32,000 nt of DNA, taken from assembly GCF_000007225.1 (NCBI RefSeq), contig NC_003364.1, positions 1,530,001-1,562,000 on the forward strand, in the 5' to 3' direction. Source of the stretch: Pyrobaculum aerophilum str. IM2 (GTDB lineage Archaea > Thermoproteota > Thermoprotei > Thermoproteales > Thermoproteaceae). The notes below the pieces were generated by a model that saw nothing but the letters and a program-made list of their open reading frames with translations, did no database searches and was not told where the DNA came from. Numbering within the stretch: position 1 is the stretch's first letter; each line of letters begins with the position of its first letter. This document shows positions 2 through 28,330 of this stretch, piece by piece. The position numbers were made by a program, and so were the translations under genes.

Positions 2-919
2 ATGCAGACTCAAGAGCGCCTCCCCGACGAGGAGTCCCTTAAAGTCCTCTTCGAGGACTATCTGGACATGACGCCTACGCAAGTATTCCTCTGGGCCTCT
101 CAGAACATCCACCCGCAGAAGACGCCGTCTGAGCTAATGCCAACTGAGCCGTATGTTCAAGCCAGCCACGCCTCTTCGGGCGGGATGTGGGCATCGGGAC
201 CTCCCGACATTGCGCCGGAGGAGTACAAATGGGGCCCGAACAGAATGCTCACAGTGGAGGGCCTATTCGGCGCGGGGGACGTGGTGGGGGCCTCGGGGCA
301 TAAATTCAGCAGCGGCTCTTTTACCGAGGGGAGAATAGCGGGCAAAGCCGCTGTTAGATACGTGCTGACCCAAGCCAAGGACTACAAGCCCACTATAAGC
401 AACGACACTATTGAGCGGTATTAGGAAATTGTGTATAGGCCTTTGGAGTGGTATCACAAAAACAAGCCGTTGACCACCACGCCGAAGATGCCCCCGCAGT
501 ATACCAACTGGTTTGAAATACACCCCAACTATTTAAACTGGTACCAGCTGTTAGTCAGGCTCCAGAAAATAATGGACGAATACGCCGCTGGATGGGGGAT
601 GTTCTACACCACAAACATGTACCTCTTAAACAGAGGCTGGGAGCTGTTGAAAATGCTAGAAGAGGACTTCCGCTTCGCCGCCGCGGCGAGCCTCCACGAG
701 CTCTTAAGAGTGTGGGAGTTCTACCACCGCCTCTTAGTGGGACAGGCCGTGGTGTTCTCCATGATGCATCGCAAGGAGAGCCGCGGCTATTACTTCAACG
801 CCGACTATCCGTATATTGACGAAGAGAATTGGCACGTCTTCACTCACGTCAGAAGGGATCCCAAGACCGGGCAGTGGAGCTTTAGGACATCCCCGGTGAT
901 ACACATAATCCCGCCCTAA
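2..919 (+). pseudogene. aprA: Adenylylsulfate (APS) reductase alpha subunit, C-terminal ~305 codons (5' end lies outside the window). One reading frame, interrupted by an in-frame TAG at 422-424.
   Basis: The translation (GDVVGASGHKFSSGSFTEGRIAGKAAVRY ... RLQKIMDEYAAGWG ... HRKESRGYYFNADYPYIDEENW) matches the AprA C-terminal half as I recall it from Archaeoglobus and Desulfovibrio. ORFs 2-424 and 431-919 share a frame and are separated only by tat TAG gaa att gtg. Confidence 0.8.
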
Positions 920-920
920 T

Positions 921-940
921 TTTTATATATAATTTTTTTT
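921..940 (+). terminator. Oligo-T tract downstream of aprA, a possible archaeal terminator
   Basis: ttttatatataatttttttt lies directly after the aprA TAA and includes a T8 run at 933-940. Archaeal termination commonly uses oligo-T. Confidence 0.35.
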
Positions 941-1014
941 ACCACGCCCACTCCCCTTTTTTATGATCCATAATTTTAAAAATAAGTTTTTAAAGGGAAT
1001 CGCTAGGCCTTTTT

Positions 1015-1518
1015 ATGCTCGTCGGGGTGATCTCAGACACTCACGACGACTACAAGGCCATTTATAAATTTGGGGAAATTGCCAGGAGGGTGGGCGTGTC
1101 GGCTGTTATACACGCCGGCGATTGGACCTCGCCGTTTTCAATGTTAAAAATGAGGAGGGCGCTGGGCCGGGAGATACCCGTTTACACCGTGTTCGGCAAT
1201 AATGACGGCGATAGATACAATTTCGCCAAAAGAGCCGCAGATTCCCAAGTGGATATACTGGGCGAGGCTGGGGTGGTAGAGCTCGACGGCGTGAAAATAG
1301 GGGTTTACCACGGCACTTCTGAAATACTAGTAGAGGCAATGGCCAAGTCGGGGCTTTTTGACGTCGTTATCTACGGCCACACCCATAAAATAGATATAAG
1401 GCGCGTAGACGGGGTGTTAGTTGTAAACCCTGGGGAGGCGTGCGGCTGTGCCAGCGAGAGGAAGACGGCGGCTTTGTTAAATGTGGAAAAAATGGATGTG
1501 GAAATTATAGATCTTTAA
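1015..1518 (+). CDS. Metallophosphoesterase, MJ0936/YfcE-like
   Basis: Ordered calcineurin-like motifs are present: ISDTHD, HAGD, GNNDGD, YHGT, GHTH. Confidence 0.8.
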   Translation: MLVGVISDTHDDYKAIYKFGEIARRVGVSAVIHAGDWTSPFSMLKMRRALGREIPVYTVFGNNDGDRYNFAKRAADSQVDILGEAGVVELDGVKIGVYHGTSEILVEAMAKSGLFDVVIYGHTHKIDIRRVDGVLVVNPGEACGCASERKTAALLNVEKMDVEIIDL

Positions 1519-1526
1519 AAAACAAA

Positions 1527-2343: not shown

Positions 2344-2610
2344 CTACACCACTTCTATTGCGTCTAAAACCCTAAATTTTTGATTTAAATGTTGTAAATA
2401 CGGCTCTGCCCTATCTCTCAATAGGTACAGCGCCACAGCTCCCCAGTTGTGGAAGGCCTTGTCCAATTCCACGTTTATTTTAAGCGCTATGAACCCCGCG
2501 GCCCGCCCCCCTCCGCACTCCACGGGGTAAATAGAAAAAGCGTATTTAGTGGATTGCCCCTGCCACGGGATGTCCTCGGCCACGTCTATTAAAAGCGTCT
2601 CGTTCTCCAA
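2344..2610 (-). CDS. Hypothetical protein. The open frame continues upstream to 2724 without a canonical start codon.
   Basis: The ORF-track start is TTG at 2610. The same frame stays open for 38 more codons (YIPFHDLLFAFTLDGEDYLLGFLDLKKRVLIEAPSCDN) that look coding but contain no ATG, GTG or TTG. Confidence 0.4.
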   Translation of the reverse strand: MENETLLIDVAEDIPWQGQSTKYAFSIYPVECGGGRAAGFIALKINVELDKAFHNWGAVALYLLRDRAEPYLQHLNQKFRVLDAIEVV

Positions 2611-2816
2611 GTTATCGCATGAGGGCGCCTCGATTAAAACTCTCTTCTTGAGGTCGAGAAAGCCGAGGAGGTAGTCCTCTCCGTCTAGCGTAAATGCAAA
2701 TAACAGGTCGTGGAAGGGTATGTATTAAACCCCCTGGCTGTTGGCGGATAAAAGATATGGGATTTGGTCGAGGAAAACCCTCGGTTGCGACCTGGCCCTT
2801 TGTATAAACTCCTCCA

Positions 2817-3965
2817 TCACAAGGCGTCTCTCAGCCTCTTATACACATCACCTCTGCCGCGGAATGTCAAGAACGTCCTGGCGAACTCGGGAACTCTCTG
2901 ATAGTAGTCGTGTACTTCCTTCAGCCCCACTAGCTCGAGGAATTTAGACCACCCAACTCTGTCAATAAAGTCCGCCAGCCTCTCGCCGGGCTTGGCGTGC
3001 TGACGCCACACCTCTATAACGTGTTTCACTACGGCGATAATTTCCTCATACCTAGGCGGCTTGGCGGGAAGCCAGGGAATTAACACTCTGGCCAACCTGG
3101 CGCCTCCACCTGTATTTGACATCTTCCCGCCGACGAGTATGGCGACTCCGACGTTTTCTGGGTCATAATCAAAGGCGTCGCAGTTCTCTTTACAACGGGC
3201 GCAGTTTATACACTTCTCGCCGAGGAGCACTAGCTTGACCTTATCGCCCTCTCTCCTCAAAGTGTGTGCGCCGGTGGGGCAGACTTGCACTAGGAATATT
3301 TGGCTTTCAGTTACCTTAGCTAATGCTCTTGGAGGCGGCAGACACATGCCGATAACCTCCTCTCTTATTTTCGGCGGGGCGCCCCACTGGCCCACAATAG
3401 CTATGTCAATGGCGGTCCCGCCTGCGCACATAGCAGGACAACCGGATACAAATATGCGTAGCTTGGCGGGGAGGCTCTCTTCTTTGAAATAGGGGGCTAA
3501 GGCGTCGCCCAAAGCTTTTGTAATACTGGGCGAATCAACTACTGCTGTAGTACACGTGAGAAATGCAGTACACGAATTTATTCCCCACATTGATCTACCC
3601 CACCCTCCCACTGGGAAGCCCATTTTCTCCACCTCTTCTTTTATCTTCAACGCCTTGTCTAGAGAGTCGGTGAGAATTTCCAAATTGCCGTTGCGGGTGA
3701 TTTTTATACCGCCGATGCCCAGCTTATCTGCAATATCTATAAATTTTCTCAAAGTCTCCGTGCTCATTCTGAAATTCGGCGGAGTGCCCACCTTTACGGT
3801 GAACACCCTATCCCCAGTTGAGGATATGGGTTCAATAATGCCGTAGCCGTGGAACTTCCTGTCCACCCACTTGCCCACATTGCGCCTTATTAACTCGGGC
3901 AACCACTCAGTGTAAGGAACTGGCAACCTCTTCTGAAGCCTCTGCGCGACGGGGTCGGCGGTCAT
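2817..3965 (-). CDS. dsrB: Dissimilatory sulfite reductase beta subunit, copy 1
   Basis: Siroheme/[4Fe-4S] Cys motifs SCTAFLTC (CX5C) and GCPAMC (CX3C), plus a ferredoxin insert CINCARCKENC. Start MTADPVAQ overlaps the dsrA stop (ATGA). Confidence 0.9.
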   Translation of the reverse strand: MTADPVAQRLQKRLPVPYTEWLPELIRRNVGKWVDRKFHGYGIIEPISSTGDRVFTVKVGTPPNFRMSTETLRKFIDIADKLGIGGIKITRNGNLEILTDSLDKALKIKEEVEKMGFPVGGWGRSMWGINSCTAFLTCTTAVVDSPSITKALGDALAPYFKEESLPAKLRIFVSGCPAMCAGGTAIDIAIVGQWGAPPKIREEVIGMCLPPPRALAKVTESQIFLVQVCPTGAHTLRREGDKVKLVLLGEKCINCARCKENCDAFDYDPENVGVAILVGGKMSNTGGGARLARVLIPWLPAKPPRYEEIIAVVKHVIEVWRQHAKPGERLADFIDRVGWSKFLELVGLKEVHDYYQRVPEFARTFLTFRGRGDVYKRLRDAL

Positions 3966-4613
3966 GGCCTCTTCCCGAAGTACTCCTCTACTATCTTGCC
4001 GGCCCAATTAGCCCACATTGTCCTCTCCTCGTCGTCTAGCACCGCGCCTGCTCTCAACGACGGGTGTAGAGTGGGCTTCCTCTCCTCATTTATGCCGAGG
4101 ATTTCCGTGAGGTATTTCTTAAACCCGACCTTCATAATAAAGTCGCCAATTCTGTCTTTATGCTTCACCACGCCCTTTTCCATGTACTCCATCCAGCTCT
4201 CCACAGTCTTTACCACCCAGTCCATGGCCTCCTCCACTGAGTTAACAACTGCCAACGGCTTGCCCATTTTGCCGCCGAATCTGCCCTTTACATGCCCGCC
4301 GACGACTACGGCTATTTTCACCTTCTTCCCCGGTTTTATTGCTGGGAACGCCGCTCTTATGCAGTGCATGGATTTTTTACACCTACTGCCGTCTATTTTC
4401 AACTCCTTACCGTCCCATGTAATTGCCCCGCTTGGGCAATTAGCTGCCAGCTTGGCCGGGTCCACCTCCCCAGCCTCAATCTTCCTCCTCAAAAGCTCTT
4501 GATCCACCTCAGGAGCGCCCTCCCAAACGCCAATAAAACCAAAATCAGCGCGATGAACAGCCCTGGTGCAGTCGAAGGGACAGCCGGAGAACTTCGCCTT
4601 GAACTTAAAGGGA
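3598..4613. repeat. Left arm of a 1016-bp inverted repeat (dsrA 3' part plus dsrB 5' part)
   Basis: Reverse complement of 16611-17626. Every stretch I compared by eye was identical. The ORF-track translations crossing the two arms are identical in pairs across the repeat (3996-4502 vs 16722-17228; 4292-4729 vs 16363-16932; 3556-3846 vs 17378-17677). Confidence 0.9.
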
Positions 4614-5209: not shown

Positions 5210-5228
5210 GAGTAAAGTCAACACAGGG

Positions 5229-5240
5229 AAATATTTAACT
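5229..5240 (-). promoter_or_regulatory. TATA-like box for the dsrAB copy-1 operon
   Basis: Minus-strand ttaaatat (plus-strand 5231-5238) lies 22 nt upstream of ATG 5209, inside a 127-bp AT-rich spacer. Confidence 0.4.
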
Positions 5241-7170: not shown

Positions 7171-7171
7171 A

Positions 7172-11930: not shown

Positions 11931-13347
11931 TCAAAAAAATAAATTCTTCTCCCTTAAGGTATTGCCCTTGCCCGCACGCGCCGTAATGCCATACTGGCGC
12001 TGGAACGCCCAGAGAGTTGAACGGGAACACAAGGCCCTCAAGACGTTGTATGTGTAGGGGTGTATGTGTAAATACTGGGCGTGCATATTCCACTTAACCA
12101 CGCCGTCCCAGCCGCCCCCACTCCCACTCCCCTCTCCAGCCGTATTGCCAGCTTAGGCCTCTCTATATTATCCTTAGAGTAGTGAAACTCGTGGCCGATG
12201 ATCCTCGCCCCGACGGGGGCTATGGGAGTTTCGCCCACCACCTCCCCCCAGGCGTAGCCCTTGCCCACTGGCCTTTCGAGCATTACAGTGACGGCGTCTA
12301 AAGCCCCCACCATTTCGTACTCGCTCCTGTCTATTATTATAGAAGAAGTCATGTACATCAAGCCGCCGCATTCGGCGTACAGCCTCCCGCCCCCCTCTAT
12401 GTATTTCAACAATGCCCTTCTAAACGGCCTGTTCCTCTCCAGCCCCTCTGCCATTACCTCCGGAAACCCCCCGCCTACTACTACCACGTCTACAGGCGGA
12501 ACCTCTTGGTCTCTTAACGAGTCGAGAAATATTAAGTGCCCCAGAGAGGCCGCCTCTTCTAAAAGCTCGGGGTAGTAGAAGGTGAAGGCTCTGTCCATAA
12601 TTACGCCTATTTTACAGCCAAGGGGCTTGGGCGATTCGTCGGACAGATCTGCCTCCACCTCCCCGGCCCTTTTCGCTATAGACAATACGGCATCTAAGTC
12701 GAGGTGGGGCAAGACGTAATTCTCCAAAACCTCCACAATTCCGCTAGAATCAAGGCGCTCGTCAACAGGGACGAGGCCTAGGTGGCGGTAGGAAAAGGCC
12801 TCTGATATTTTCTTAGATTTAGGCACCACCCCCACCACCTCAACCCCCTCCTCTGGAATTGATTTAACAAGCTTCTCAGCCTGTCTGGGAGTTACATTTG
12901 TCAACACCACTCCCGCGATGTCCACCTGGGGGTCAAAGGCCCTCAGCCCCCTCACCACGGCCCTTAGAGTTCTGTTAACTCTCTCGCCGTTTAATACTAA
13001 AATCACAGGGGCTTTGAGAATTTTGGCCACCTGGGCAGTGGAGCCGGTTTCAGTAACGCCGTCTACCGAGTCGTACAAGCCCAAAACTCCCTCAATAATC
13101 GCAACGTCGGAGCCCGCGGCGTATTTAACAAACCTCTTCTTTACCCCCTCCACCCCCATTAACATAACGTCGAGATTTCTGCCGGGCCTTCCAGCGGCAA
13201 CTTTGTGGTAAGAGGGGTCGATGTAGTCAGGCCCGATTTTAAAAGGGGCTATTTTAAGCCCCCTTTTAGCCAGTCCGTAATCCCCAGGGATATAATAGTC
13301 TTGCCCGACATCCCCTTAGGCGCCGAGATTACCACGCGCGGGATCAC
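11931..13347 (-). pseudogene. CbiA/CobB-family a,c-diamide synthase (DsrN-like siroheme amidase candidate), disrupted by at least two frameshifts
   Basis: Three frames read in sequence. First: VIPRVVISAPKGMSGKTIISLG..LKGGLK* (13347-13249). Second: IAPFKIGPDYIDPSYH...GHEFHYS...LERGVGV. Third: GGGWDGVVKWNMHAQYLHIHP... (to TGA 11931-11933). The shifts coincide with the A4/G5 runs at 13252-13263 and the G5 run at 12115-12119. The 3' end is uncertain. Confidence 0.75.
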
Positions 13348-13396
13348 GTAAAAGCGTCGATGTAATTTAAAAACCTTTATTACCCAATTCCTAGAA

Positions 13397-17626: not shown

Positions 17627-18374
17627 GCCTACTCTGTGGTCTATAAATTCGTGTACTGCATTTCTCACGTGTACCACGGCGGTTGTAGACGCGCCGAGTA
17701 TTACTAAAGTGCTGTACGACCACTTAAAGCCCTACTTCACCGGAGAGGTGAAACTGCCGGCTAAGTTGAGGATTAACGTGTCGGGATGCCCCAGCTCTTG
17801 CGGAGGCTTTACCTCTGATATAAATATCGTCGGCCACTACGGAGACGCGCCGACTTACGACCCAGAGCGCGTCAAGTTATGTCTGCCTAAGTCGGCTAAG
17901 GCGCTTGAGATGGGCCACGTGCCCGAGGTGGCTGAGGTCTGCCCCACCGGCGCAATTAAAGTATACGGCAAGCCTGACGGCACCGTAGGCTTAGACGTCA
18001 TTAGGAGCAAATGCATTGCCTGCGGCCGTTGCCGCGACGTCTGCGACTGGATTGATTTCGACGAGTCTAAAGCCGGCGTGGCTATTTTAGTAGGCGGAAA
18101 GGCCAGCAACACTGGCCGCGGCCCCATGCCCTCTATACAAGTAATACCGTGGGTGCCCGCCATACCGCCTGAATATAGAGAGATCGTGGCCGTTGTGAAG
18201 ATAATTATAGACGTCTGGAGGACAAACGCCAGAGAGGGCGAACGTATCGGCGACTGGATAGCCCGGATTGGAATGGAGCAGTTCTACAAGCTCTTAGACA
18301 TACCTGTGACTAAGTGGAACAAGCCTGTAACGCTGGCCGGGGAATTCGGGATAAGACAGTTCGGCCCTATTTAA
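17259..18374 (+). CDS. dsrB: Dissimilatory sulfite reductase beta subunit, copy 2
   Basis: ATGA overlap with dsrA. The first ~122 codons are identical to copy 1 and then diverge (GCPSSC, CIACGRCRDVC). Confidence 0.9.
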   Translation: MTADPVAQRLQKRLPVPYTEWLPELIRRNVGKWVDRKFHGYGIIEPISSTGDRVFTVKVGTPPNFRMSTETLRKFIDIADKLGIGGIKITRNGNLEILTDSLDKALKIKEEVEKMGFPVGGWGPTLWSINSCTAFLTCTTAVVDAPSITKVLYDHLKPYFTGEVKLPAKLRINVSGCPSSCGGFTSDINIVGHYGDAPTYDPERVKLCLPKSAKALEMGHVPEVAEVCPTGAIKVYGKPDGTVGLDVIRSKCIACGRCRDVCDWIDFDESKAGVAILVGGKASNTGRGPMPSIQVIPWVPAIPPEYREIVAVVKIIIDVWRTNAREGERIGDWIARIGMEQFYKLLDIPVTKWNKPVTLAGEFGIRQFGPI

Positions 18375-18375
18375 A

Positions 18376-18861
18376 GTGAGTATTTACTACATAATTGGAA
18401 ATCTTCTTTTACAACTCCGCTTCCGTTATGGAGTTGAAGAAGTTGACGACAGCGTTGAGCTTGTAAATTTAGTAAAGTCCCAGGAGGAGGGAGTTGAGAA
18501 GACGTATATCTACTCGCCCCCGGGGCGTCCGCGGCCCTATTTAATATCAGCCATGCTGTCCCCTCCATACGTGGCGCTGGCAGTGGCGGATTTAGACGAT
18601 GTGCGGCAGATACACGCCGATATCCCCCTTGAGGACGTTGAGGAGGCCACTACGGTGGTAGTGGACAACTACGCCCCGTTTATAATGCCCTTAAAAAAAG
18701 ACGATGGGGTTATCTACGGAGTGCTGGGGTTTAAGACTGTGGTGGAGTCCGATGTTTTAACCGGCGGGTTCTTTGAAACATTGCTTGAAGACTTCGAGTT
18801 AAACAGCGATAAATACTTTAGTTCAATTGTTAATAAACTCACTGAATTGAAACAAAAATAA
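18376..18861 (+). CDS. Hypothetical protein downstream of dsrB copy 2 (start uncertain)
   Basis: 161-aa ORF starting with GTG 2 nt after the dsrB stop. It is acidic and does not look like DsrD. I recognised no family. Confidence 0.4.
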   Translation: MSIYYIIGNLLLQLRFRYGVEEVDDSVELVNLVKSQEEGVEKTYIYSPPGRPRPYLISAMLSPPYVALAVADLDDVRQIHADIPLEDVEEATTVVVDNYAPFIMPLKKDDGVIYGVLGFKTVVESDVLTGGFFETLLEDFELNSDKYFSSIVNKLTELKQK

Positions 18862-18950
18862 GATAATACCCCTTTTCTGTTCACATATTTATTAATAAAT
18901 CTCCTTATCTATGTGTATATAGATATCTTTAGATATTTGTAAAGTTAAGT

Positions 18951-18984
18951 AAACTTTAAATATATTAAAACTTTAAATATATTA
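18951..18984 (+). repeat. Tandem 17-bp direct repeat (aaactttaaatatatta, two copies) containing TATA-like boxes
   Basis: 18951-18967 equals 18968-18984 exactly. The second copy ends 16 nt before ATG 19001. The palindrome agatatct (18921-18928) lies upstream. Confidence 0.6.
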
Positions 18985-19000
18985 TGTTTCACAATAGATA

Positions 19001-19696
19001 ATGTTGTATTGGCCTAAACTTGACGATTCCGCCAATAACATTGTTGCATATGTAGTGAGCAACGGCCCTGTCACTATGTACCGCGTCGCCAGGGATTTAA
19101 ATCTCCATTTTTCCCATGCGTATAGAAAGTCGAAGAAGCTGGAGGACTCCGGTTTGTTGACCTCTATCGGAGGCCCCAGGGCGAGCCTTTACGACGCCAC
19201 CGTTCGAGGCCTGTTGTATGCCTATGTGGCAAAGCTGGCGAGCCGCGAGATTATATTAAAGAAACTGAGGGTGGTGCTGGGGCTACACCTCTTCTCTCTG
19301 GAAGAGGTGGAGAGCTTTATAAAATTCTTCTTAACAGTGGCGAATAAAGAGGCGCCCGTGGGCAGTCTTGCCACAATGGTCAGTTATATTTTGGACAAAT
19401 GCGGCTCTGATTATACAAGGTGTATGGCCAACCTCGACGAAAGAGACCGGGTTCTCGCCAGCAGGGTCATGGCCTATGGCATAATAAAACTTATTCACAA
19501 CTTCTTCGGCGACTCTCTTGTAGTAGCCGACGAGGGCTATTACGCCATTGTGAAATTAAGTACTAGGCAGCTGCTGGCAGTGCAGTGCAAGCTGTGCGGG
19601 AGGGAGAAATACTGTAGCCTGGATCCGTGTCCCTCGTTGAAAGACATAATTGAGGTAAAGTTGAGAGACGCCTCTAGGCTAGTGCCAGCCTTTTAA
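19001..19696 (+). CDS. Hypothetical protein with an N-terminal winged-helix-like domain (putative regulator)
   Basis: The N-terminus NNIVAYVVSNGPVTMYRVARDLNLHFSHAYRKSKKLEDSGLL resembles an archaeal wHTH. The C-terminus has a CKLCG...C..C cysteine cluster. Confidence 0.5.
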   Translation: MLYWPKLDDSANNIVAYVVSNGPVTMYRVARDLNLHFSHAYRKSKKLEDSGLLTSIGGPRASLYDATVRGLLYAYVAKLASREIILKKLRVVLGLHLFSLEEVESFIKFFLTVANKEAPVGSLATMVSYILDKCGSDYTRCMANLDERDRVLASRVMAYGIIKLIHNFFGDSLVVADEGYYAIVKLSTRQLLAVQCKLCGREKYCSLDPCPSLKDIIEVKLRDASRLVPAF

Positions 19697-20096
19697 TCCA
19701 CTTTTCTAAAATCTCCGCGCTTTCTATAAAATTGACAAGTGGGATGTTGGTTTTACAAACGCACCTCACGGCGCCTCCGTCGTTTTCCAATAGGTACACG
19801 CCGTCTCCGCCGTTTGCCAGCGCTAAGGCGTATTCCCCATCTGCGTAGTACTCTATATAAGGCGGGTGTAGCCGGGGCGGCGTTGCCTTCTCAGTGCAGT
19901 CGGGGAAGCTTGTGGCCTCTAAGGCCCACGCCAGTTCCTCATCTCTTATACAACGGCCTCCTGCGCTTAAGACGTGGCCGAACAGGTATAAGCCGTCCTC
20001 TAGCACAATCCCCTTGTTGGGGACTCTACACGGCTCGCCGTTTTTAATAATAAATTTCTTTAATTCTGAAAACAGCTCTGGCAAGTAAATACTCAC
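19674..20096 (-). CDS. Hypothetical protein, weakly SMI1/KNR4 (SUKH)-like, coupled to tusA
   Basis: The GTG start overlaps the tusA TGA (GTGA). The pattern LPELFSELKKF...NG...GGDGVYLLENDGG...FIESAEILEKWI is reminiscent of SUKH domains. Confidence 0.4.
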   Translation of the reverse strand: MSIYLPELFSELKKFIIKNGEPCRVPNKGIVLEDGLYLFGHVLSAGGRCIRDEELAWALEATSFPDCTEKATPPRLHPPYIEYYADGEYALALANGGDGVYLLENDGGAVRCVCKTNIPLVNFIESAEILEKWIKRLALA

Positions 20097-20320
20097 TTCA
20101 ATCTCTTAACAACTATTTTTAACGTTCCGTCGGGGAGCTTCTCGCTGGAAATCACCTCATGCCCCATTCTCTTAGCCCAGGCCTTGATGTCTGGATCCGC
20201 CGCAGGGTCTGTTGCCAGGACTTCTAAAACATCGCCGATTTCAATCTGGGTTATTGCCTTGGCGGTTTCCATAACTGGCACGGGGCAGAACTTCCCCCTG
20301 ACGTCTAGGACTTTTGGCAT
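20093..20320 (-). CDS. tusA: TusA/SirA-family sulfurtransferase
   Basis: 75 aa. DVRGKFCPVPVMETAKA carries the CPxP active-site motif. Confidence 0.85.
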   Translation of the reverse strand: MPKVLDVRGKFCPVPVMETAKAITQIEIGDVLEVLATDPAADPDIKAWAKRMGHEVISSEKLPDGTLKIVVKRLK

Positions 20321-20444
20321 GGACTCTCCACAGCTCCCCTTTATAAATTTAGTTACTAATTCGCGCGGGAATATCTCTCCTCTTTTATAAGTGCAAAATT
20401 AACACATTTACATAATGTTTATAAAGTAATGTGGTACTGTAGCT

Positions 20445-20696
20445 GTGAGCGAGGCGGTGTTAGACGAGGTCAGGCGAGTGTACGTGCTGGACTTAAGGGG
20501 GTATGTGTGTCCATATCCTCAACTGGCCACTGTGAGGGCTATGCGCAAATTGCCCAAGGGAAGCGTCCTCGAGGTTATTACCGATAATCCCCCTAGTTGT
20601 GAAAACGTGCCGGCCGTAGCTAGGAGAGAGGGGGGCCTTGTGGAGGGGGTTTATGAAGTAGAGCGCGGAGTTTGGAAAATTGTAATTAGGGTATGA
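20445..20696 (+). CDS. TusA-like protein (second copy)
   Basis: 83 aa. [17 protein letters not shown] carries the CPxP motif. GTG start. The stop overlaps the start of the next gene (ATGA). Confidence 0.8.
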
Positions 20697-22399
20697 ACAG
20701 GCTGGAGAGGTTTAAAGAGAGGGTTAAGCTCTATAGAGAGGCTGGGATTGCCTTGGAGTCCCTCTCTCTGGGCTGTTCGGTGAAGGTGGATTTGTACAAC
20801 GTCTTGTACCCGGCCCTCCAGTTGCTCCGGGAGGAGATGTACAAGCTGAATTTAGTAATCGCCCCCAGGGAAGACGCGGCGATAATGCCTGGGGCTTCCG
20901 CCGCGCTGAGGCGGTATTTCCTAGACGTGGAGAACCCGCGGCTCGACCCGGCGGAAGTGGAGAAGCTGTCGCCCACAGTGGCAATAGTGCTGGCCCAAGT
21001 GTACATGGGCAAGGCCGCGGCGCCCGACCTCTTCGCCAAGTACGTCGCCGGGCTCTACAAGGCGCTTGGGTCCAGTAGACACAAAGTGTGGCTGGGGAAG
21101 GGCCACAGCATTATCAGCACTAAGAAGGGGGCTGAGTTCTTCATGGTGGACTTCCTAAAGGCGGAGGGGCAGGAGGGGTATATAGTGGCTAATAACGACA
21201 CAATACAAGTTATTGACCCCTCTGAGGATTTCGACTCGCCGCTACAAATCGCCGTCGCTGTAAACAACGCTCTTAACGACTTGTTCACAAAAGGGGCGTG
21301 GAAGGATATTCACATAGCCCCCGTATACGACGCGCCGCCGCCTTTTAGAGGGCCTTTAGAGGCGAGGGTGAAGAGCTACGCCTCCAGCCTGGGGAAACTT
21401 GTTGAGGCCCCGCAACCTGAAATGGGTTACCTCCTCCTAGGCGCCACTGCATATGCGAGGCTCGACCGGGAGCCGCCCCTTTTTTACGACAAAATAAGAG
21501 AGGGCTTCGTGGTCGTGGTCACGAGGCCCTTCGGCGAATTGGCCTACTTCACCACCTACGTGGCAGTTCACACCGACGAGACTTTGATGAAAAAATTCGA
21601 GGAGGAAGTGATGCCAATAGAACAGTTTGAGGCCGAGAAGCGCAGGGTGTTAGAAATTATGGCAACGCCGAATTTAGAAGCGGCCAAGGCCATTTACCAA
21701 TACCTCCCCGACTTGGGAGAGCGCTTTGATCCCGAGGCTCACATCGCCGCGACTATTGACGTCTCAGGCCCGGGGATATTTGTATTTAAGGAGGTGGCGG
21801 AAAGGGCAGGCGTCGACATTAGGCTTTTTGACGTCCCGTTGATGTCAAGCGCAGTTTCTAAATTCGCCGCAGATAATTACATAATGCCCGACGCCACCGC
21901 TGGCACTAACGGGGCCATTGCCATATTTGCCAGCAGAAAAGTGGCCGAGGAGCTGGTGGAAAAACTCTCAAAAGCACCCCACGCAAAACCGACAGTAATA
22001 GGCGTAGTTGAGGGGAAGGGGGAGGGCAGATTGATAGTGCCGGAGTGGGCCCTTCAGTACATCTCCAGCAAGAAGCTGAGGGAGAAGCTGGGGGCTGCCT
22101 CCGTCCTCGGGGGGCTTGCCAGAGTGGTCGGGAGGCCTATACGCGCGGTGGCGTATGTAGAAGGGGCTGTGCAAGGCGTCGGCTTCCGCCCAATGGCCCG
22201 GGCGAGGGCCAAGGCCCTTGGCTTGTTGGGATACGCCAAGAATCTCCCAGACGGCAGGGTGGAGGTGGTAGTCGAGGGAGACGAGGAGAGAGTGCGGAAA
22301 TACGTAGAGGAGTTGTGTAAGGGGTTTGAGAACTGCAGAGTGGGCCAAGTGATATACGCGGAGGCAAGGGGCGAGTTCAGCGACTTCTCAATTTTATGA
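20693..22399 (+). CDS. SelD-like (PurM/AIR-synthase-fold) protein fused to a C-terminal acylphosphatase domain
   Basis: N-terminal GCSVK has the same Cys-x-x-Lys spacing as Sel[42 protein letters not shown] and TAGTNGAI follow in SelD order. The last ~90 aa carry both acylphosphatase signatures ([12 protein letters not shown]; [17 protein letters not shown]). Confidence 0.7.
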
Positions 22400-22764
22400 A
22401 AATAGGGGTAATAATCGCCTCCGACGATCCCATGAGGCTGTATGTAGCCGCCACGTATATAGCCACTGAGGTGGCCAGGGGGAATGAGGTTGGCGTTTTC
22501 GTCACCGGCAGGGGCGTGGTGCCGTTCTCCAAGGGAGATCTCTCTGACTATCCAGAGGCTGTCAAAATGAGAGAAATGAAGGTGACTTGGCTGGAGATAT
22601 TCAAAGCGGCGAAGCCGCTGGGGGTAAAGGTGGCTGTCTGCGAAACTGCGGCGAAGATATACGGCCTAACTGCCCAGGACTTCCGCCATTTGGAAATTGT
22701 TGACGAAATTTCCTCTATGTATTCATTCCTAGAAGAATATGGGGAAAAAATTGTTACGTTTTAA
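22396..22764 (+). CDS. DsrE/DsrF-like family protein (COG2044-type), second copy
   Basis: 122 aa with [11 protein letters not shown] and the [12 protein letters not shown] Cys motif. ATGA overlap with the SelD-like gene. Confidence 0.7.
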
Positions 22765-22836
22765 GCCTTCTTCTCAGACTCTTTCTTCTTCTCTTCCACT
22801 TTTTTCGGTGGGGCGCACATAGTCACAAATTTATAT

Positions 22837-23193
22837 TTAGAATTTAAATTTTTCGAATAAAGAGGGGCTCACTAACTTGGCGAGGTAATCGCATAAGATG
22901 TCGGCGCATTTGACGCACATCTCGCCTTTGGGATCTGTTAAGCGTTTTTCAAGACAGCGCGCGCACCGCATTACCTCTTCGGGGGGATTTGGCGACAGCT
23001 TTTTCAAAAGGGCCGGTAGCGCCTCTACGCTCGGCGTGGGGCTGTGAGGGGGCCTGCCCAGTAGGCCCAGTATTAAAGAGCGCACGGCCACAAAGGCGTT
23101 GTAACAAGCCCACGGGTGGTCCCCCAGCTCCAGCCCTCTGAGCGCCTCTTTCATGTGTCTATAATGTCTCTCGAGCCACTTGGGGTGAATCAC
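22837..23193 (-). CDS. Hypothetical protein: helical N-terminus (weakly HEPN-like) plus a CxxC...CxxC pair
   Basis: 118 aa with a GTG start. RCARCLEKRLTDPKGEMCVKC looks like a zinc-ribbon-type Cys pattern. Confidence 0.35.
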   Translation of the reverse strand: MIHPKWLERHYRHMKEALRGLELGDHPWACYNAFVAVRSLILGLLGRPPHSPTPSVEALPALLKKLSPNPPEEVMRCARCLEKRLTDPKGEMCVKCADILCDYLAKLVSPSLFEKFKF

Positions 23194-23231
23194 GTGGCGA
23201 ATAAAATTTAACTATATATCACTCTCGCCAC

Positions 23232-23708
23232 ATGCTATTGTCCATGTGTAAAACCGCCTCTATTTTAGACTACCGGCCGGTGGTTTTTCTAGACGGCGAG
23301 GGCTACGTCAGAGTCACCGCCGACAATGGGAGGAGCATAGTGGCCAAGGCGGTGAGGGGGCCGTGTAAAGGGGTGTCTCGGGAAGTCGCTTTCCTCCTAT
23401 ATCCCTATTACGGCTGGGGGAGGATGGAGGTGGCGGCGGAATTCCAAATAGAGCCCGTGGACCCCGTCAGAGCCACGAGAGTTGTCATGAGAGTCCCCTT
23501 CGGCATCAGCGAGGTAGTGGTGAGGAGACAGCTGGAGGGCTATCCCATTTATGAGGGGTCTGTGGCGTTGGAGTACTTAGAACATATTGAATTCGGCGAG
23601 GTGGTGCACGTAGAGCCGTCGCAGTTTTCCGTTCTCACGTCTGAGACTAAGCTTAGGCTTGTGGAAGTCCCAGTGGAGGATTCAGAGATTATATTCTTGC
23701 GCCGTTAG
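23232..23708 (+). CDS. Hypothetical protein
   Basis: 158-aa ORF with coding-like composition. No recognisable motif. Confidence 0.4.
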   Translation: MLLSMCKTASILDYRPVVFLDGEGYVRVTADNGRSIVAKAVRGPCKGVSREVAFLLYPYYGWGRMEVAAEFQIEPVDPVRATRVVMRVPFGISEVVVRRQLEGYPIYEGSVALEYLEHIEFGEVVHVEPSQFSVLTSETKLRLVEVPVEDSEIIFLRR

Positions 23709-23760
23709 TATATATATTATCCACAGGGTGGAAATAATGTTTTTCATAACGTTTTAGTAT

Positions 23761-25128
23761 ATGCCCATGCCAGCTCCTCTGGAGCCCCACGGCGGTCGTT
23801 TAGTATATAACGTAATTGAGGACAGAGATAAGGCGGCGGCTATGATACAAGGGCTGCCGTCTATTGAAATTGAGCCGACGTTAGGCCCCGACGGCTCGCC
23901 TATCCGCAACCCGTATAGAGAGATCATGTCTATTGCATACGGCTTCTTCAGCCCGGTGGAGGGCTTTATGACGAGAAATGAAGTGGAGTCGATTCTCAAA
24001 GAGAGGAGGCTTTTAAACGGCTGGCTCTTCCCCTTCCCCTTGATATACGACGTCGACGAGGAGAAGATTAAGGGCATTAAAGAGGGAGACTCAGTCCTTC
24101 TAAAGCTCAAGGGTAAGCCTCTCGCCGTGTTGAACGTTGAGGAAATATGGAGGCTTCCAGACCGCAAAGAGCTGGCCGATGCGGTCTTCGGCACGCCGGA
24201 GAGAAATAAGGAGGTTGTGAAGAAGAGATTTGACGAGAAACACCCAGGGTGGCTGATCTACCGATCGATGAGGCCGATGGCCCTCGCCGGAAAAATTACT
24301 GTTGTAAATCCGCCGAGGTTTAAAGAGCCTTACTCGCGGTTTTGGATGCCTCCGCGCGTCTCGAGGGAGTACGTGGAGAAAAAGGGGTGGCGGATAGTAG
24401 TTGCCCACCAGACTAGAAACGTCCCCCACATAGGCCACGAGATGCTTATGAAAAGGGCAATGTTCGTGGCGGGAGGCGAGAGGCCTGGAGACGCCGTTTT
24501 AGTCAACGCTATAATTGGCGCCAAGCGGCCTGGGGACTACGTGGATGAGGCGATTTTAGAAGGCCACGAGGCGTTGAACAAAGCCGGGTATTTCCACCCA
24601 GACCGCCACGTGGTCACCATGACGCTATGGGATATGCGCTACGGCAACCCTCTTGAGTCTCTTCTACACGGCATAATTAGGCAGAACATGGGGGCTACTC
24701 ACCACATGTTCGGCCGCGACCACGCCGCGACTGGCGACTATTACGACCCCTACGCCACGCAGTACTTATGGACCAGAGGGCTCCCCAGCTACGGCTTAAA
24801 CGAGCCTCCCCACATGACTGACAAGGGGCTGAGGATAAAGCCGGTTAACCTCGGCGAGTTCGCCTATTGTCCCAAATGCGGCGAGTATACATACCTCGGC
24901 ATGTCCTACGAGGGGTATAAAGAAGTGGCGCTGTGTGGACACACGCCGGAGCGCATCTCCGGCTCCCTCCTCCGCGGCATTATAATAGAGGGCTTGAGGC
25001 CGCCTAAAGTGGTGATGAGGCCTGAGGTATACGACGTAATTGTGAAGTGGTGGAGGGTATACGGCTATCCCTACGTGACCGATAAATACCTAAGAATAAA
25101 GGAACAAGAGCTAGAGGTGGAGCTATGA
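23761..25128 (+). CDS. sat: Sulfate adenylyltransferase (ATP sulfurylase)
   Basis: The motif HQTRNVPHIGHEMLMKRA and the downstream GRDHAA are ATP-sulfurylase signatures. There is a C-terminal Cys pattern CPKCGEY...CGH. Confidence 0.9.
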   Translation: MPMPAPLEPHGGRLVYNVIEDRDKAAAMIQGLPSIEIEPTLGPDGSPIRNPYREIMSIAYGFFSPVEGFMTRNEVESILKERRLLNGWLFPFPLIYDVDEEKIKGIKEGDSVLLKLKGKPLAVLNVEEIWRLPDRKELADAVFGTPERNKEVVKKRFDEKHPGWLIYRSMRPMALAGKITVVNPPRFKEPYSRFWMPPRVSREYVEKKGWRIVVAHQTRNVPHIGHEMLMKRAMFVAGGERPGDAVLVNAIIGAKRPGDYVDEAILEGHEALNKAGYFHPDRHVVTMTLWDMRYGNPLESLLHGIIRQNMGATHHMFGRDHAATGDYYDPYATQYLWTRGLPSYGLNEPPHMTDKGLRIKPVNLGEFAYCPKCGEYTYLGMSYEGYKEVALCGHTPERISGSLLRGIIIEGLRPPKVVMRPEVYDVIVKWWRVYGYPYVTDKYLRIKEQELEVEL

Positions 25129-25469
25129 CATATAAAATAGGGCTTTTAATAGACGAGAAGAGATACGAGGCTATTAAAAACACCCCGCTGGCCCAGAGTT
25201 TAAAGTCTATGTTCGGCGGCGAGATAAAGATGTTAGAGGTTGAGGTTGATGAAGAGACCGCCAAGAGAATACTCGCGGAATTCCCGTCGGCCAGAGTAGA
25301 CGCGAGGGGCTTTCTCGAGGATCTGCCAGTGGCGTTTAAGAGGGCGCTCTTCGAGGCCATAGCCCAGGAGGGGAATGCGGACAAATCGGTGTTCGAAAAA
25401 GTGTTTCAAAAAATCGACGTTATTAAAGAGGCGGCGAAGAAGGAGAAAGAATACGTGCCCCCGCCGTAG
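25125..25469 (+). CDS. Hypothetical 114-aa protein translationally coupled to sat
   Basis: ATGA overlap with the sat stop. Charged, helical-looking protein with a lysine/glutamate-rich tail. No family recognised. Confidence 0.5.
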   Translation: MTYKIGLLIDEKRYEAIKNTPLAQSLKSMFGGEIKMLEVEVDEETAKRILAEFPSARVDARGFLEDLPVAFKRALFEAIAQEGNADKSVFEKVFQKIDVIKEAAKKEKEYVPPP

Positions 25470-25647
25470 GTTGGAGCAATACTTTTTTCAAATAGGCCGA
25501 GTGCTTAACGACAAACACATAAGTTTTCCCATCCTTCTCAGTCCTTATAGTTACGCCCTTGAAGTTTTTAACCGCCTCCGACAGGGGGAGCCCGGCGTAT
25601 TGAGGCGGGAACTCCACCACGTCGTTTTTCGCCCTTATATACGCCAC
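25423..25647 (-). CDS. Possible small protein (74 aa)
   Basis: ORF with a GTG start. The N-terminal 50 aa look protein-like (AYIRAKNDVVEFPPQYAGLPLSEAVKNFKGVTIRTEKDGKTYVFVVKH). The C-terminal tail overlaps the convergent gene by 47 nt. Confidence 0.3.
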   Translation of the reverse strand: MAYIRAKNDVVEFPPQYAGLPLSEAVKNFKGVTIRTEKDGKTYVFVVKHSAYLKKVLLQPTAGARILSPSSPPL

Positions 25648-25767
25648 TACGTCGCATAGACAGAACTTTTACAACACCTCTTCGTATTCCATATGGATCA
25701 CTGGACTATTCCTAAAATACTTTATTACTAGGCCGTGGGAAACACCTATTTTCAATAATGTGGGAAC

Positions 25768-25779
25768 AATTTTATTAAA
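25768..25779 (+). promoter_or_regulatory. TATA-like box upstream of dsrM
   Basis: aattttattaaa ends 21 nt before ATG 25800. Confidence 0.4.
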
Positions 25780-25799
25780 GGCAATACAGAGGTTCACAT

Positions 25800-26558
25800 A
25801 TGGACCCAGTCACAATAATTTTATACGGCGTATTTCCCTATATTTCACTACTGCTTTTTGCGGGGGGCGTGTTGTATAGACTCGGCAGCTGGCTGTCCGC
25901 CAGCGGCCTCACGGGGCTTTACTCAGTGGCGGTTAAGGGCTATACCTGGAGCTTTGGCTCCAGGCTGGGGGAGGTTTTAAAACGGGTTTTCCTCCTATAC
26001 ACCTTGACGATGTCCGACAAAATGCTTTTAGTGGGCTCGTTCCTATTCCACTGGGGCATTTGGATAGCGTTGCTGGGCCACGCCTCTATGATTATCCCGC
26101 CGGAGCAATTCGGCATGCCTAAAGAGACGCATAAGGCCATTGCGCTATACGCCGGAGGGACAGCTGGCGTCATGTCGCTAATAGGCTTAGTGATACTCCT
26201 CATAAGAAGGATTGTGAGGAGCGACGTGAGGAGGCTGAGCTTTCTAGACGACTGGTTCGCCTTAATCCTCCTGCTCCTCCTCGTGGCCGTGGGGAATTAC
26301 CAGACGCTTGTGCTACGCCCTGACTACATGGAGACTGTAGCCCCGTGGGTCCAGTCCGTGTTGGCGGGGAGCCCCAGGCTTGAGCTAGTGGAACACTGGG
26401 ACTTCGCCACTAAGCTACACGTCTTCCTGGCGCTGTTGTTTATCGCGTACGTCCCGTTCGGTAAGTTAATACACCCCTTCTCCTTCTTGGCAATGCCGAC
26501 GTTGTGGAAAAGCCCCACGAAACTATACGGCTACATATTGGCGAAAATAAGAGGGTAA
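25800..26558 (+). CDS. dsrM: DsrM (NarI/HdrE-like membrane di-heme b subunit)
   Basis: Five to six hydrophobic helices. The conserved His-bearing segments FHWGIWIALLGH and HVFLALLFIAYVPFGKLIHPF are typical of NarI-like cytochrome b. Confidence 0.85.
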   Translation: MDPVTIILYGVFPYISLLLFAGGVLYRLGSWLSASGLTGLYSVAVKGYTWSFGSRLGEVLKRVFLLYTLTMSDKMLLVGSFLFHWGIWIALLGHASMIIPPEQFGMPKETHKAIALYAGGTAGVMSLIGLVILLIRRIVRSDVRRLSFLDDWFALILLLLLVAVGNYQTLVLRPDYMETVAPWVQSVLAGSPRLELVEHWDFATKLHVFLALLFIAYVPFGKLIHPFSFLAMPTLWKSPTKLYGYILAKIRG

Positions 26559-26609
26559 TTAACAACTTTTTTGAAATAAGATTTATAGAAGACCCACGGC
26601 TATTCACAC

Positions 26610-28330
26610 ATGACTGTAGCGGAGGCACAACACGCACACGAGGCGGTTTCCGCCCCGTCTTTGTTCAAAGCCGCCTACAACGAAAGACACCTATCCGGTA
26701 CCGCTCTTATTCAAAACCGCCGACGGCACACGGCGCAGTTACTTTCATAAGTCAGGAAATCATGTCAGGAAAGCGTACTTCCTCTTGACAAATGCCAATA
26801 TCAGGACGACTGGCAAATTGCTGAGCAAGGCGGCTCTAGCCTTGAACAAACCCCCACAGTTAATCAATGTTAAATACCAGTTGAATTAGAGACATGGAGT
26901 CCCCCTACGCCCCCCACCCCGCCCCGGGCAGGGCGGGGCGGCCCTGGCGCGCGGGCCGAAGGCGGGGAGAGCCCGCCGAGGGGGTTAGCGACACTCCGGG
27001 CGTTGCCCGCCCCGGAAGCCTCTGGCGATCCGGGGCCCCGTGCCCCCCCGGGACGCCCGGAGAGCAGAAAGGGGGCATGTGTCTAGACAACTGCCCCACC
27101 TACGTGAGGACTTAGGATATTTTCAACTCGCCGGTGGGCAGGGCGGAGTTGTTAAGGGCTGTGTTAAAAGCCGACTCGCCCAGCGGAAAAATCTTCGGAA
27201 AATTAGTCGGGGCGGCGAAACTCACTGAGGAGCACTTAGAGAAAATATATACCTACTACTACCAATGCCTGGAGTGTAGGAAGTGCGCATACGCCTGTCC
27301 CTTCGGCATTGACCAAGCCGATATAACCCGGCTGGTTAGGGATGTGATGTATGAGGCAGGTATAATTTCGAAATACATCGCGACGGTAATAGACGCAGTG
27401 GAGAGGACTGGCACTAACCTCGGCATGAAGCCTCTGGCGGTAGTCAAGTCTATTACATTCGCCGCGGGGGAGATAAAGGAGGAGAAAAAAGTGGAAGTGG
27501 AGTATTACATTTACAGAGACGATCAGGGGAAGATGTTAAAATATAAAGGCGATCAGCTAGTGGGCGAGGTGACTAAGGAATCAGGGGACTGGCCCGAGGC
27601 CTTGTTATTACCTCCTTCCGCCGACTTCTTTACAAATATAGAGACGTTAAAGGGGTATATGCTCTTCCTCCACCTAATGGGAATTAAATTCGCCTTCTCC
27701 ACTGAAATGGCCGAGCTGGCAAACTTCGGCTTGTTCGCAAGCGAGAGGCACATGAAGTTCATCGGCCAGAAGGCGGTGAACGCCGCCTTAAGGCTTGGGG
27801 TTAAGTTCGTAATTGCGGGGGAGTGCGGACACGGATGGAGGGCGTTTAAAAACTACACAGGCCCGGAGCTGGAGAAACACGGCATTAAGACAATGCACGT
27901 ATTCCACCTCGTAATAGACGCTATTAAAAACGGCAAATTGAAGCTAAACCCTGAGGCGAATGGAGATATAGTGTACACATTCCAAGACTCTTGTAACTAC
28001 GCCAGAGGCGGCGATTTGACTGAGGAGCCCCGGTTTATAATTAAACACGTGGTGAAGAAATTCGTCGAGTCTCCCAACAACCGGGAGAAGACTTGGTGTT
28101 GCGGCGGCGGGGGAGGCCTGTTGACTGACGGGCTTTTGCCGTAGAGAATTCAATACGCCAAGAACTGGTACGAAGACGCCTTGAAGGCAGGCGCCAACCA
28201 CGTGGTGAGGGCTTGCGCCATATGCAAGGCGCAGCTAAGCCACACTATTCCGCACCTCAACAAGGAGTACGGCAAAAGTATTACATACAGCGGGTTAATG
28301 GATTTAGTCTACAAGGCCACAGTGGTGTAA
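26610..28330 (+). pseudogene. dsrK: DsrK (HdrD-like CCG-domain Fe-S protein), disrupted. The 5' third is scrambled, and there are in-frame TAGs at 27113-27115 and 28142-28144.
   Basis: The body reads ...GMCLDNCPTYVRT*DIFNSPVGRAELL...YQCLECRKCAYACPFG...TWCCGGGGGLLTDGLLP*RIQYAKNWYEDALKAGANHVVRACAICKAQL... in a single frame, ending at TAA 28328-28330. A DsrK-like N-terminal segment (KPPTTKDTYPVPLLFK) lies in a different frame at ~26665-26715. The start is uncertain. Confidence 0.8.
26898..27075 (+). other. Extremely GC-rich structured element embedded in the dsrK 5' region (possible ncRNA, intron or insertion)
   Basis: By hand count, 134 of 160 nt are G or C in 26901-27060, against ~45% in the preceding 60 nt. 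Nested helices: 26901-06/27070-75, 26917-24/26931-38, 26939-44/26953-58, 26961-66/26972-77, 26994-27002/27054-62 and 27009-15/27030-36. Confidence 0.5.

What the first reader, a model, noticed from the sequence alone, without database searches (positions are those of the whole stretch)
422..28144. Three clean in-frame stops in sulfate-respiration genes are all TAG and share the context TAG-RRW-ATT
Seen in sequence:
- aprA has tat TAG gaa att (422-430).
- dsrK has act TAG gat att (27113-27121) and ccg TAG aga att (28142-28150).
- In each case the conserved protein continues in the same frame on both sides, so these are substitutions rather than frameshifts.
- All three are amber codons, followed by a purine-rich codon and then ATT.
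- TAG also ends several well-bounded genes here (2341, 2344 on minus, 7172 on minus, 10721, 11407), each followed by a different sequence.

Inference, with two competing readings:
- (a) Ordinary nonsense decay of a pathway no longer used.
- (b) Context-dependent amber read-through or recoding that keeps these genes partly functional.

With n=3 the shared 9-nt context may be coincidence. Three independent hits on the same +2 codon are nonetheless unexpected.
Basis: partly seen in the sequence, partly recalled or inferred. Interest (0 to 1): 0.7.

Follow-up and report, generated by a model that had tools for sequence, protein, structure and literature searches.

The report
Strain-specific nonsense mutations in decaying genes
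The three in-frame TAG codons are real, but they are ordinary and already annotated nonsense mutations in decaying sulfur-metabolism genes of Pyrobaculum aerophilum IM2; near-identical strains carry sense codons there, so this is not a recoding signal.

Summary
The window comes from Pyrobaculum aerophilum str. IM2. TAG sits in frame at 422 (aprA), 27113 and 28142 (dsrK-like), followed by GAA-ATT, GAT-ATT and AGA-ATT. Independent assemblies of the same strain reproduce all three.

They are not conserved. Strains 99.1-99.9% identical carry AAG at 422 and TTG at 28142. At 27113 they carry AAG, TAG or TTG. Other Pyrobaculum species have Lys/Arg or Leu/Ile at these sites. The downstream RRW-ATT codons are already present next to the sense codons, so the shared context is inherited coding sequence. 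A shared run of this kind has a post-hoc p of about 0.01.

The same genes carry lesions that no read-through could repair:
- aprB has a -1 frameshift in a C-run.
- In dsrK, 185 nt that include two Fe-S cysteines are replaced by about 424 nt of foreign DNA, which shifts the frame.
- The cobB/dsrN-like gene has a 4-nt deletion.
- A neighbouring small gene has an in-frame TAA in this record.

About 45% of single-step nonsense mutations are expected to give TAG, so three out of three is unremarkable. TAG also terminates 9 of 39 genes in the window. GenBank already labels these pieces 'authentic frameshift' and 'degenerate'. Reading (a), decay, is supported. Reading (b), recoding, is not.

The parts
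2..919 (+). 3' part of aprA (APS reductase alpha subunit), interrupted; GenBank AAL64283.1 covers 431-919 as 'part 2, authentic frameshift'
   Evidence: the intact close homologue P0122 scores 718 bits on TIGR02061 aprA, cutoff 642
422..430 (+). TAG GAA ATT; TAG replaces AAG (Lys)
   Evidence: position 422 is A in L013, L016 and L017 (98.2-99.7% identical strains) and the codon is AAG in L003; Lys in P0001, P0002, P0122
26610..28330 (+). remnant of the dsrK-like Fe-S/CCG protein gene (493 aa when intact); the 336-aa piece is GenBank AAL64320.1 'iron-sulfur binding reductase, degenerate'
26650..27077 (+). about 424-428 nt of unknown origin replacing a 185-nt dsrK segment that is 100% identical in 7 other strains; shifts the frame (+239 nt) and removes the first two Cys of the CxxCxxCxxxCP motif
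26890..27075 (.). 78% GC, strongly structured part of the insert, closed by an imperfect inverted repeat; no known RNA family
27113..27121 (+). TAG GAT ATT; ancestral AAG (Lys). Also TAG in L019, L022, L023; TTG (Leu) in L018, L024
28131..28131 (+). GAG to GGG (Glu to Gly) at a residue invariant in orthologues; shared only with TAG-bearing strain L023
28142..28150 (+). TAG AGA ATT; TTG (Leu) in all five other strains, CTC/CTA/ATA in other species
2344..2817 (-). 157-aa hypothetical gene next to dsrB with in-frame TAA at 2727-2725; TAC (Tyr) in every other assembly, including re-sequenced IM2
12038..13351 (-). cobB/dsrN-like a,c-diamide synthase gene with a 4-nt deletion near 13277 that frameshifts the P-loop region (437 aa intact in L028)
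25800..26558 (+). intact dsrM/NarI-like cytochrome b gene, partner of dsrK

Best explanation
The three TAGs are independent, recent, loss-of-function point mutations in the Pyrobaculum aerophilum IM2 lineage: AAG to TAG, AAG to TAG and TTG to TAG, all single A/T transversions. They lie in genes of an APS-reductase / DsrMK-type sulfur module that this lineage no longer needs. Translation simply terminates at them. The shared downstream RRW-ATT is the pre-existing coding sequence (Glu-Ile, Asp-Ile, Arg-Ile) and a coincidence, not a signal. Shown here: the polymorphism, the ancestral codons, the co-occurring lesions, and the use of TAG as a terminator. Inferred: absence of protein product, and relaxed selection as the cause.
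For: Source and prior annotation: exact protein look-ups place the window in P. aerophilum IM2. The pieces are annotated 'authentic frameshift' and 'degenerate'. Meyer & Kuever 2008 (PMC2211403) already note that IM2 aprBA is frame-shifted. Polymorphism: 422 is A (AAG) in three strains 98.2-99.7% identical. 28143 is T (TTG) in five strains. 27113-5 is AAG, TAG or TTG among strains less than 1% apart. No orthologue in other species has a stop. The downstream codons GAA ATT, GAT ATT and AGA ATT are identical in strains that carry the sense codon. Further lesions in the same operons: aprB C6 to C5 frameshift; dsrK 185 to 424 nt replacement, which removes two Cys ligands and shifts the frame; Glu to Gly at an invariant residue; 4-nt deletion in the cobB/dsrN-like gene. 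Other strains inactivate the same genes differently: a 524-nt aprB-aprA fusion deletion in L013, an 806-nt dsrK-sqr deletion in L022, and extra missense changes in TAG-bearing alleles P0155 and P0158. Other nonsense mutations in the region lack the context: TAA TAC ATA and TAG CCC GTG in L018/L024. Expected TAG share is 45%, and 9 of 39 terminators are TAG. There is no tRNA in the window or in six fetched loci, which include IM2 flanks and other strains' copies of this region. There is no significant or shared structure downstream of the TAGs.
Against: ATT at +2 in all three cases is nominally unlikely: 2.6% per site, and post-hoc p is about 0.01 for a shared run of at least 3 nt. The site-1 TAG allele persists in at least four sampled lineages, and in L019 and L023 it is the only disabling lesion in dsrK (L023 also carries the Glu-to-Gly change). 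Leaky function there is therefore not excluded. No proteomic data and no genome-wide tRNA scan could be run.
Confidence: 0.93

Rival explanations
1. Context-dependent amber read-through or recoding: TAG followed by RRW-ATT is decoded at some rate by a suppressor or near-cognate tRNA and keeps AprA and DsrK partly functional.
For: All three stops are TAG and share ATT at +2. The motif occurs only at these three places on both strands of the window. The site-1 TAG is found in several strains whose dsrK has no other disabling lesion.
Against: The stops are absent from near-identical strains and from all other species. The context is ancestral. In IM2, dsrK lacks two Fe-S cysteines and is out of frame with its start codon, and aprB is frameshifted, so read-through cannot restore either enzyme. 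TAG ends 9 of 39 genes. No tRNA gene was found in the window or in six fetched loci, which include IM2 flanks. There is no downstream structure or shared sequence beyond 9 nt. TAG-bearing alleles accumulate further missense changes and deletions.
Confidence: 0.03
2. Mutational hotspot: the genes are decaying, but a sequence-context-dependent process favours A:T to T:A transversions just upstream of (G)RRWATT. That would explain both the shared motif and the double hit at codon 27113-27115.
For: All three IM2 events, and the TAG/TTG difference at 27114, are A/T transversions 1-2 nt upstream of G-RRW-ATT-like sequence. One codon has three alleles among strains less than 1% apart. Post-hoc p is about 0.01.
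Against: The sample is tiny and the pattern was defined post hoc. Most single-step routes to TAG are transversions anyway. The other two nonsense mutations in the region are G:C to T:A changes without the motif. The TAG to TTG step is better explained by selection for reversion.
Confidence: 0.06
3. Sequencing or assembly errors in the reference record.
For: One in-frame stop (TAA, 2725) is seen only in the window and not in three re-assemblies of the same strain.
Against: Independent assemblies from different runs match the window exactly at the TAG sites they cover: three at the aprA TAG, and L021 at both dsrK TAGs and the whole insertion, with L025 and L026 matching up to their ends inside the insertion. 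The original annotators marked the aprA interruption 'authentic'.
Confidence: 0.01

Closest known systems
Disrupted aprBA and 'degenerate' Fe-S reductase genes annotated in P. aerophilum IM2 (AE009441: AAL64283.1, AAL64320.1; noted by Meyer & Kuever 2008, PMC2211403)
   Same: These are the very same loci and lesions. The interpretation as non-functional genes of an unused pathway is also the same.
   Different: The record calls the aprA lesion a 'frameshift', but it is a nonsense substitution. The strain polymorphism, the order of lesions in dsrK and the inserted DNA were not described in the sources I could read.
Programmed stop-codon read-through (e.g. TMV-type UAG-CAA-UUA context; MuLV UAG plus pseudoknot) - from general knowledge
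   Same: An amber codon followed by a defined hexanucleotide.
   Different: Those signals are conserved, have a functional extension product and often a downstream structure. Here the stop is polymorphic, the context is inherited, and the product cannot be functional.
Pyrrolysine decoding of in-frame UAG in methanogen methyltransferase genes - from general knowledge
   Same: In-frame UAG in archaeal metabolic genes.
   Different: Pyl sites are conserved across species and need pylTSBCD. Here orthologues have Lys or Leu, TAG is a common terminator, and no tRNA was found in the DNA available.

Membership tests
Ordinary pseudogene (nonsense decay) | The premature stop lies where orthologues have a sense codon, one base change away | tested here: met
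   AAG to TAG (422), AAG to TAG (27113), TTG to TAG (28142)
Ordinary pseudogene (nonsense decay) | The lesion is polymorphic among very close strains | tested here: met
   Strains 98.2-99.9% identical carry sense codons
Ordinary pseudogene (nonsense decay) | Additional independent disabling lesions in the same gene or operon | tested here: met
   aprB -1 frameshift; dsrK 185 to 424 nt replacement plus a second TAG plus Glu-to-Gly
Ordinary pseudogene (nonsense decay) | No full-length protein made | not testable with these tools
   Needs proteomics
Programmed stop-codon read-through / recoding | Stop codon conserved at the site in relatives | tested here: not met
   No TAG at these sites in the other-species orthologues examined: seven dsrK loci (L001-L006 and L009 at site 1; L001-L006 at site 2) and, for aprA, locus L003 plus proteins P0001, P0002 and P0122. 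Sense codons in conspecific strains.
Programmed stop-codon read-through / recoding | Stimulatory context or downstream structure specific to the stop | tested here: not met
   The context exists unchanged next to AAG/TTG alleles; fold z-scores are -1.9, -0.1, -1.6 and there is no shared sequence beyond 9 nt
Programmed stop-codon read-through / recoding | Read-through yields an intact functional product | tested here: not met
   dsrK is out of frame with its start and lacks two Cys ligands; aprB is frameshifted
Amber reassignment / pyrrolysine-type decoding | tRNA with CUA anticodon (and pyl genes) present | tested here: inconclusive
   No tRNA in the 32-kb window or in six fetched loci, which include IM2 flanks; the rest of the 2.2-Mb genome was not available
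Amber reassignment / pyrrolysine-type decoding | TAG rare or avoided as a terminator | tested here: not met
   TAG ends 9 of 39 genes in the window
AprA (TIGR02061) | Score above NCBIfam equivalog cutoff | tested here: met
   Intact close homologue P0122: 718 bits against a cutoff of 642; the window fragment gave over a thousand hits, the best 120 dominated by proteins named adenylylsulfate reductase subunit A
DsrK (NF045796) | Score above NCBIfam equivalog cutoff | tested here: not met
   Intact allele P0153: best hit is DsrK, but 323 bits against a cutoff of 400. 'DsrK-like, next to a NarI/DsrM-like cytochrome b' is the safe name

The most novel reading that the evidence does not exclude
In wild P. 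aerophilum strains where the site-1 TAG is the only disabling lesion in dsrK (L019, L023), the amber codon may be leaky, decoded by a near-cognate tRNA in the G-purine-rich context. The AAG/TAG/TTG series at that codon would then reflect a tolerated, partly functional intermediate. That would be a first hint of functional amber read-through in Thermoproteales.
Probability: 0.03. Interest if true: 0.6.

Novelty: already known. Interest (0 to 1): 0.1.

Why it matters
As a recoding candidate it does not hold up, so it should not be carried forward as evidence for amber read-through in Crenarchaeota. Its residual value is as an example of gene decay caught in progress. The same APS-reductase and DsrMK genes are being inactivated independently, by different lesions, in closely related P. 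aerophilum lineages. One nonsense codon appears to have reverted to a sense codon (TAG to TTG). This bears on the long-standing question of whether Pyrobaculum APS reductases are functional at all.

Tried and rejected
- Rfam scans of the whole window at gathering thresholds, and of 26500-27200 at E up to 10, found no family for the GC-rich insert or anything near the TAGs.
- tRNA scans of the window and six loci found nothing.
- Exact-pattern scans for the insert found nothing: two in metagenome contigs, one in viral contigs. BLAST of the insert against the phage and plasmid collections also found nothing. Its origin stays unknown.
- P0097 and P0121 end exactly at the Tyr before the aprA TAG site, which looked like a conserved stop. 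In fact the contig ends there, and the next base is A, not T.
- I first counted 27077 G-to-A as an IM2-private missense change in dsrK. It probably belongs to the inserted DNA. Without it, the enrichment of IM2-private changes in dsrK is not significant, so I do not rely on it.
- The P. aerophilum genome paper (PMC117417) is not held in the library.
- A search for SRR606249 gave nothing useful. That this run is a synthetic community containing IM2 DNA rests on my memory only.
Full report
**Observation.** TAT TAG GAA ATT lies at 419-430 in the aprA frame. ACT TAG GAT ATT lies at 27110-27121 and CCG TAG AGA ATT at 28139-28150, both in the dsrK-like frame. The window is a sulfur-metabolism island. 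It holds the aprA 3' part, dsrC, dsrE, two dsrAB pairs, an assimilatory sulfite reductase, PAPS reductase, TusA, sat, a dsrM-like cytochrome b, a dsrK-like gene and an SQR-like gene. It also has a PaREP1 ORF. TAG terminates 9 of the 39 genes I delimited, none with RRW-ATT after it.

**Source and prior knowledge.** Exact protein look-ups identify the window as Pyrobaculum aerophilum str. IM2.
- Sat is AAL64316.1.
- The 162-aa aprA piece is AAL64283.1, 'adenylylsulfate reductase alpha subunit part 2, authentic frameshift'.
- The 336-aa dsrK piece is AAL64320.1, 'iron-sulfur binding reductase, degenerate'.
- Meyer & Kuever 2008 (PMC2211403) state that the IM2 aprBA sequences are frame-shifted and suggest decay of an irrelevant pathway.

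The interruptions are therefore already on record as pseudogene lesions.

**Not sequencing errors.** Assemblies from independent runs match the window base for base. L012 (ERR9765783), L014 (GCA_013329805.1) and L015 (SRR606249) cover the aprA TAG. L021 (GCA_013329805.1) covers both dsrK TAGs and the whole dsrK insertion. L025 (JGI 3300030446) and L026 (ERZ926311) match as far as they reach and end inside the insertion, at 26789 and 26918. The single exception is position 2725.

**What the TAGs replace.** In other Pyrobaculum and Thermoproteus genomes the aprA site is Lys. The codon is AAG in L003, and the residue is K in P0001, P0002 and P0122. dsrK site 1 is AAG, AAA, AGA or AGG. Site 2 is CTC, CTA or ATA.

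More telling are conspecific strains 98.2-99.9% identical to IM2.
- Position 422 is A (AAG) in L013, L016 and L017.
- Position 28143 is T (TTG) in L018, L019, L020, L023 and L024.
- Codon 27113-27115 is AAG in L020 and L027, and Lys in proteins P0151, P0153 and P0160.
- The same codon is TAG in L019, L022 and L023, and TTG in L018 and L024.

The downstream codons GAA ATT, GAT ATT and AGA ATT are unchanged in the strains with sense codons. The 'context' is therefore the ancestral Glu-Ile, Asp-Ile and Arg-Ile coding sequence and did not arise with the stops.

**Other lesions in the same genes.**
- In IM2, dsrK homology to all orthologues begins only at about 27074. A 185-nt segment, 100% identical in seven other strains, is replaced by about 424 nt of unrelated DNA at 26650-27073/27077. 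This deletes the first two cysteines of the CxxCxxCxxxCP motif. It also puts the native start (26610) out of frame with the rest of the gene, since 424 - 185 = 239.
- An invariant Glu is changed to Gly at 28131. That change is shared only with the TAG-bearing strain L023.
- aprB, just upstream of the window, has a C6-to-C5 frameshift in all IM2 assemblies. It is intact in L016 and L013.
- The cobB/dsrN-like gene (12038-13351, minus strand) has a 4-nt deletion near 13277, relative to L028, that frameshifts the P-loop region.
- The 157-aa gene at 2344-2817 (minus strand) has TAA where every other assembly has TAC, including re-sequenced IM2.

**Other strains break the same module in different ways.**
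- L013 has a 524-nt deletion that fuses aprB to aprA.
- L022 has an 806-nt dsrK-sqr deletion and a +1 frameshift in a dsrE-like gene.
- L019 has a dsrB frameshift.
- L018 and L024 have GAG to TAG in a 158-aa gene, context TAG CCC GTG.
- TAG-bearing dsrK alleles P0155 and P0158 carry extra missense changes.

The order of events in dsrK reads as progressive decay. The site-1 TAG, shared by four lineages, came first. Glu-to-Gly (IM2 plus L023) came next. The second TAG and the insertion, found in IM2 only, came last.

**Statistics.**
- From the window's own codon usage, 45% of single-step nonsense substitutions give TAG, 33% TAA and 22% TGA. Three of three TAG therefore has P of about 0.09. Four TAG among the five nonsense polymorphisms seen has P of about 0.13.
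- ATT follows at +2 at 2.6% of TAG-mutable sites, and RRW-ATT at 0.6%.
- As a post-hoc test, three random nonsense-mutable sites share a run of at least 3 identical bases within +/-12 nt with p = 0.011. They share at least 5 identical columns with p = 0.036.
- This is a mild coincidence. Two further nonsense mutations in the region do not share it.
- There is no significant RNA structure downstream of the TAGs (z = -1.9, -0.1, -1.6) and no similarity beyond the 9-mer.
- No tRNA gene is present in the window or in six fetched loci, which include IM2 flanks and other strains' copies of the region.

**Conclusion.** The best explanation is ordinary, recent, strain-specific pseudogenisation, with confidence 0.93. 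Translation terminates at the TAGs. Even complete read-through could not rebuild DsrK or AprBA in IM2.

Read-through (0.03) is not strictly excluded for the wild strains in which the site-1 TAG is the only disabling lesion in dsrK. A context-dependent A/T transversion hotspot (0.06) could lie on top of the decay and explain the motif. A genome-wide strain comparison would settle it.

**Family names.** aprA membership is solid: 718 bits on TIGR02061 against a cutoff of 642 for the intact homologue. The 'dsrK' is best called DsrK-like: its best NCBIfam hit is DsrK, at 323 bits against a cutoff of 400. It lies beside a NarI/DsrM-like cytochrome b.

**Side observations.**
- The three-allele codon (AAG, TAG, TTG) is most parsimoniously AAG to TAG to TTG. 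That makes it a pseudo-reversion of a nonsense codon to Leu at a Lys/Arg-conserved position.
- The inserted DNA ends in a 78%-GC element of about 185 nt. It folds at -125 kcal/mol (z = -3.6) and is closed by an inverted repeat. It has no Rfam, phage, plasmid, viral or metagenome match.
- The two dsrAB copies share a 1137-nt, 97%-identical inverted segment within flanks that are otherwise about 75% identical, which suggests gene conversion.

Noticed in passing
window 26650-27077 (GC-rich core 26890-27075): About 424 nt of unknown origin replace 185 nt of dsrK in IM2 only. The 3' half is 78% GC, folds at -125 kcal/mol (z -3.6) and is closed by the inverted repeat TAGAGACATGgagtCCCCCT / AGGGGGCATGTGTCTA. 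The left junction forms the hairpin GGCGG-TTT-CCGCC. There is no Rfam, phage, plasmid, viral or metagenome match. Two assemblies of the strain break inside it, which hints at a repeat or an ncRNA-derived filler.
   Followed up: partly
window 27113-27115 and loci L018-L024, L027: One codon has three alleles (AAG Lys, TAG stop, TTG Leu) among strains less than 1% divergent. Parsimony favours AAG to TAG to TTG, meaning a nonsense codon reverted to a non-ancestral sense codon in an otherwise intact dsrK.
   Followed up: partly
window 2725-2727 (minus strand), gene 2344-2817: An in-frame TAA is present only in this record. All other assemblies, including three of the same strain, have TAC (Tyr). 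This is probably a reference error or a clone-specific mutation.
   Followed up: yes
window 12038-13351 (minus), near 13277: A 4-nt deletion (relative to L028) frameshifts the first ~25 codons, including the P-loop, of the cobB/dsrN-like a,c-diamide synthase gene. This is another lesion in the siroheme/dsr cluster.
   Followed up: partly
L012 7509-7999, L015 3569-4059 (aprB, about 1.4-1.9 kb upstream of the window start): aprB of IM2 has a -1 frameshift in a C-run (C5 against C6 in L016 and L013). This is typical homopolymer instability.
   Followed up: yes
window 3477-4613 and 16611-17747: A 1137-nt inverted repeat, 97% identical, spans the dsrA 3' and dsrB 5' parts of the two dsrAB paralogue pairs. 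Their flanks are only about 75% identical. This suggests recent gene conversion.
   Followed up: partly
L013 about 3880-3895 (against L016 3799-4322): The strain from ERZ1669402 has a 524-nt deletion between short direct repeats (both encode GVVR). It fuses the AprB N-terminus to AprA residue ~92. This is an independent inactivation of aprBA.
   Followed up: yes
L010 end (8076) and P0121: Contigs of two Pyrobaculum MAGs end exactly one base after the Tyr codon that precedes the aprA TAG site. This mimics a conserved truncation, but the next base is A (Lys codon).
   Followed up: yes
window 17645-26649 against L018-L027: SNP patterns among strains are mosaic. For example, L022 and L019 switch between IM2-like and L020-like haplotypes. 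This indicates recombination among P. aerophilum lineages, or chimeric metagenome contigs.
   Followed up: no
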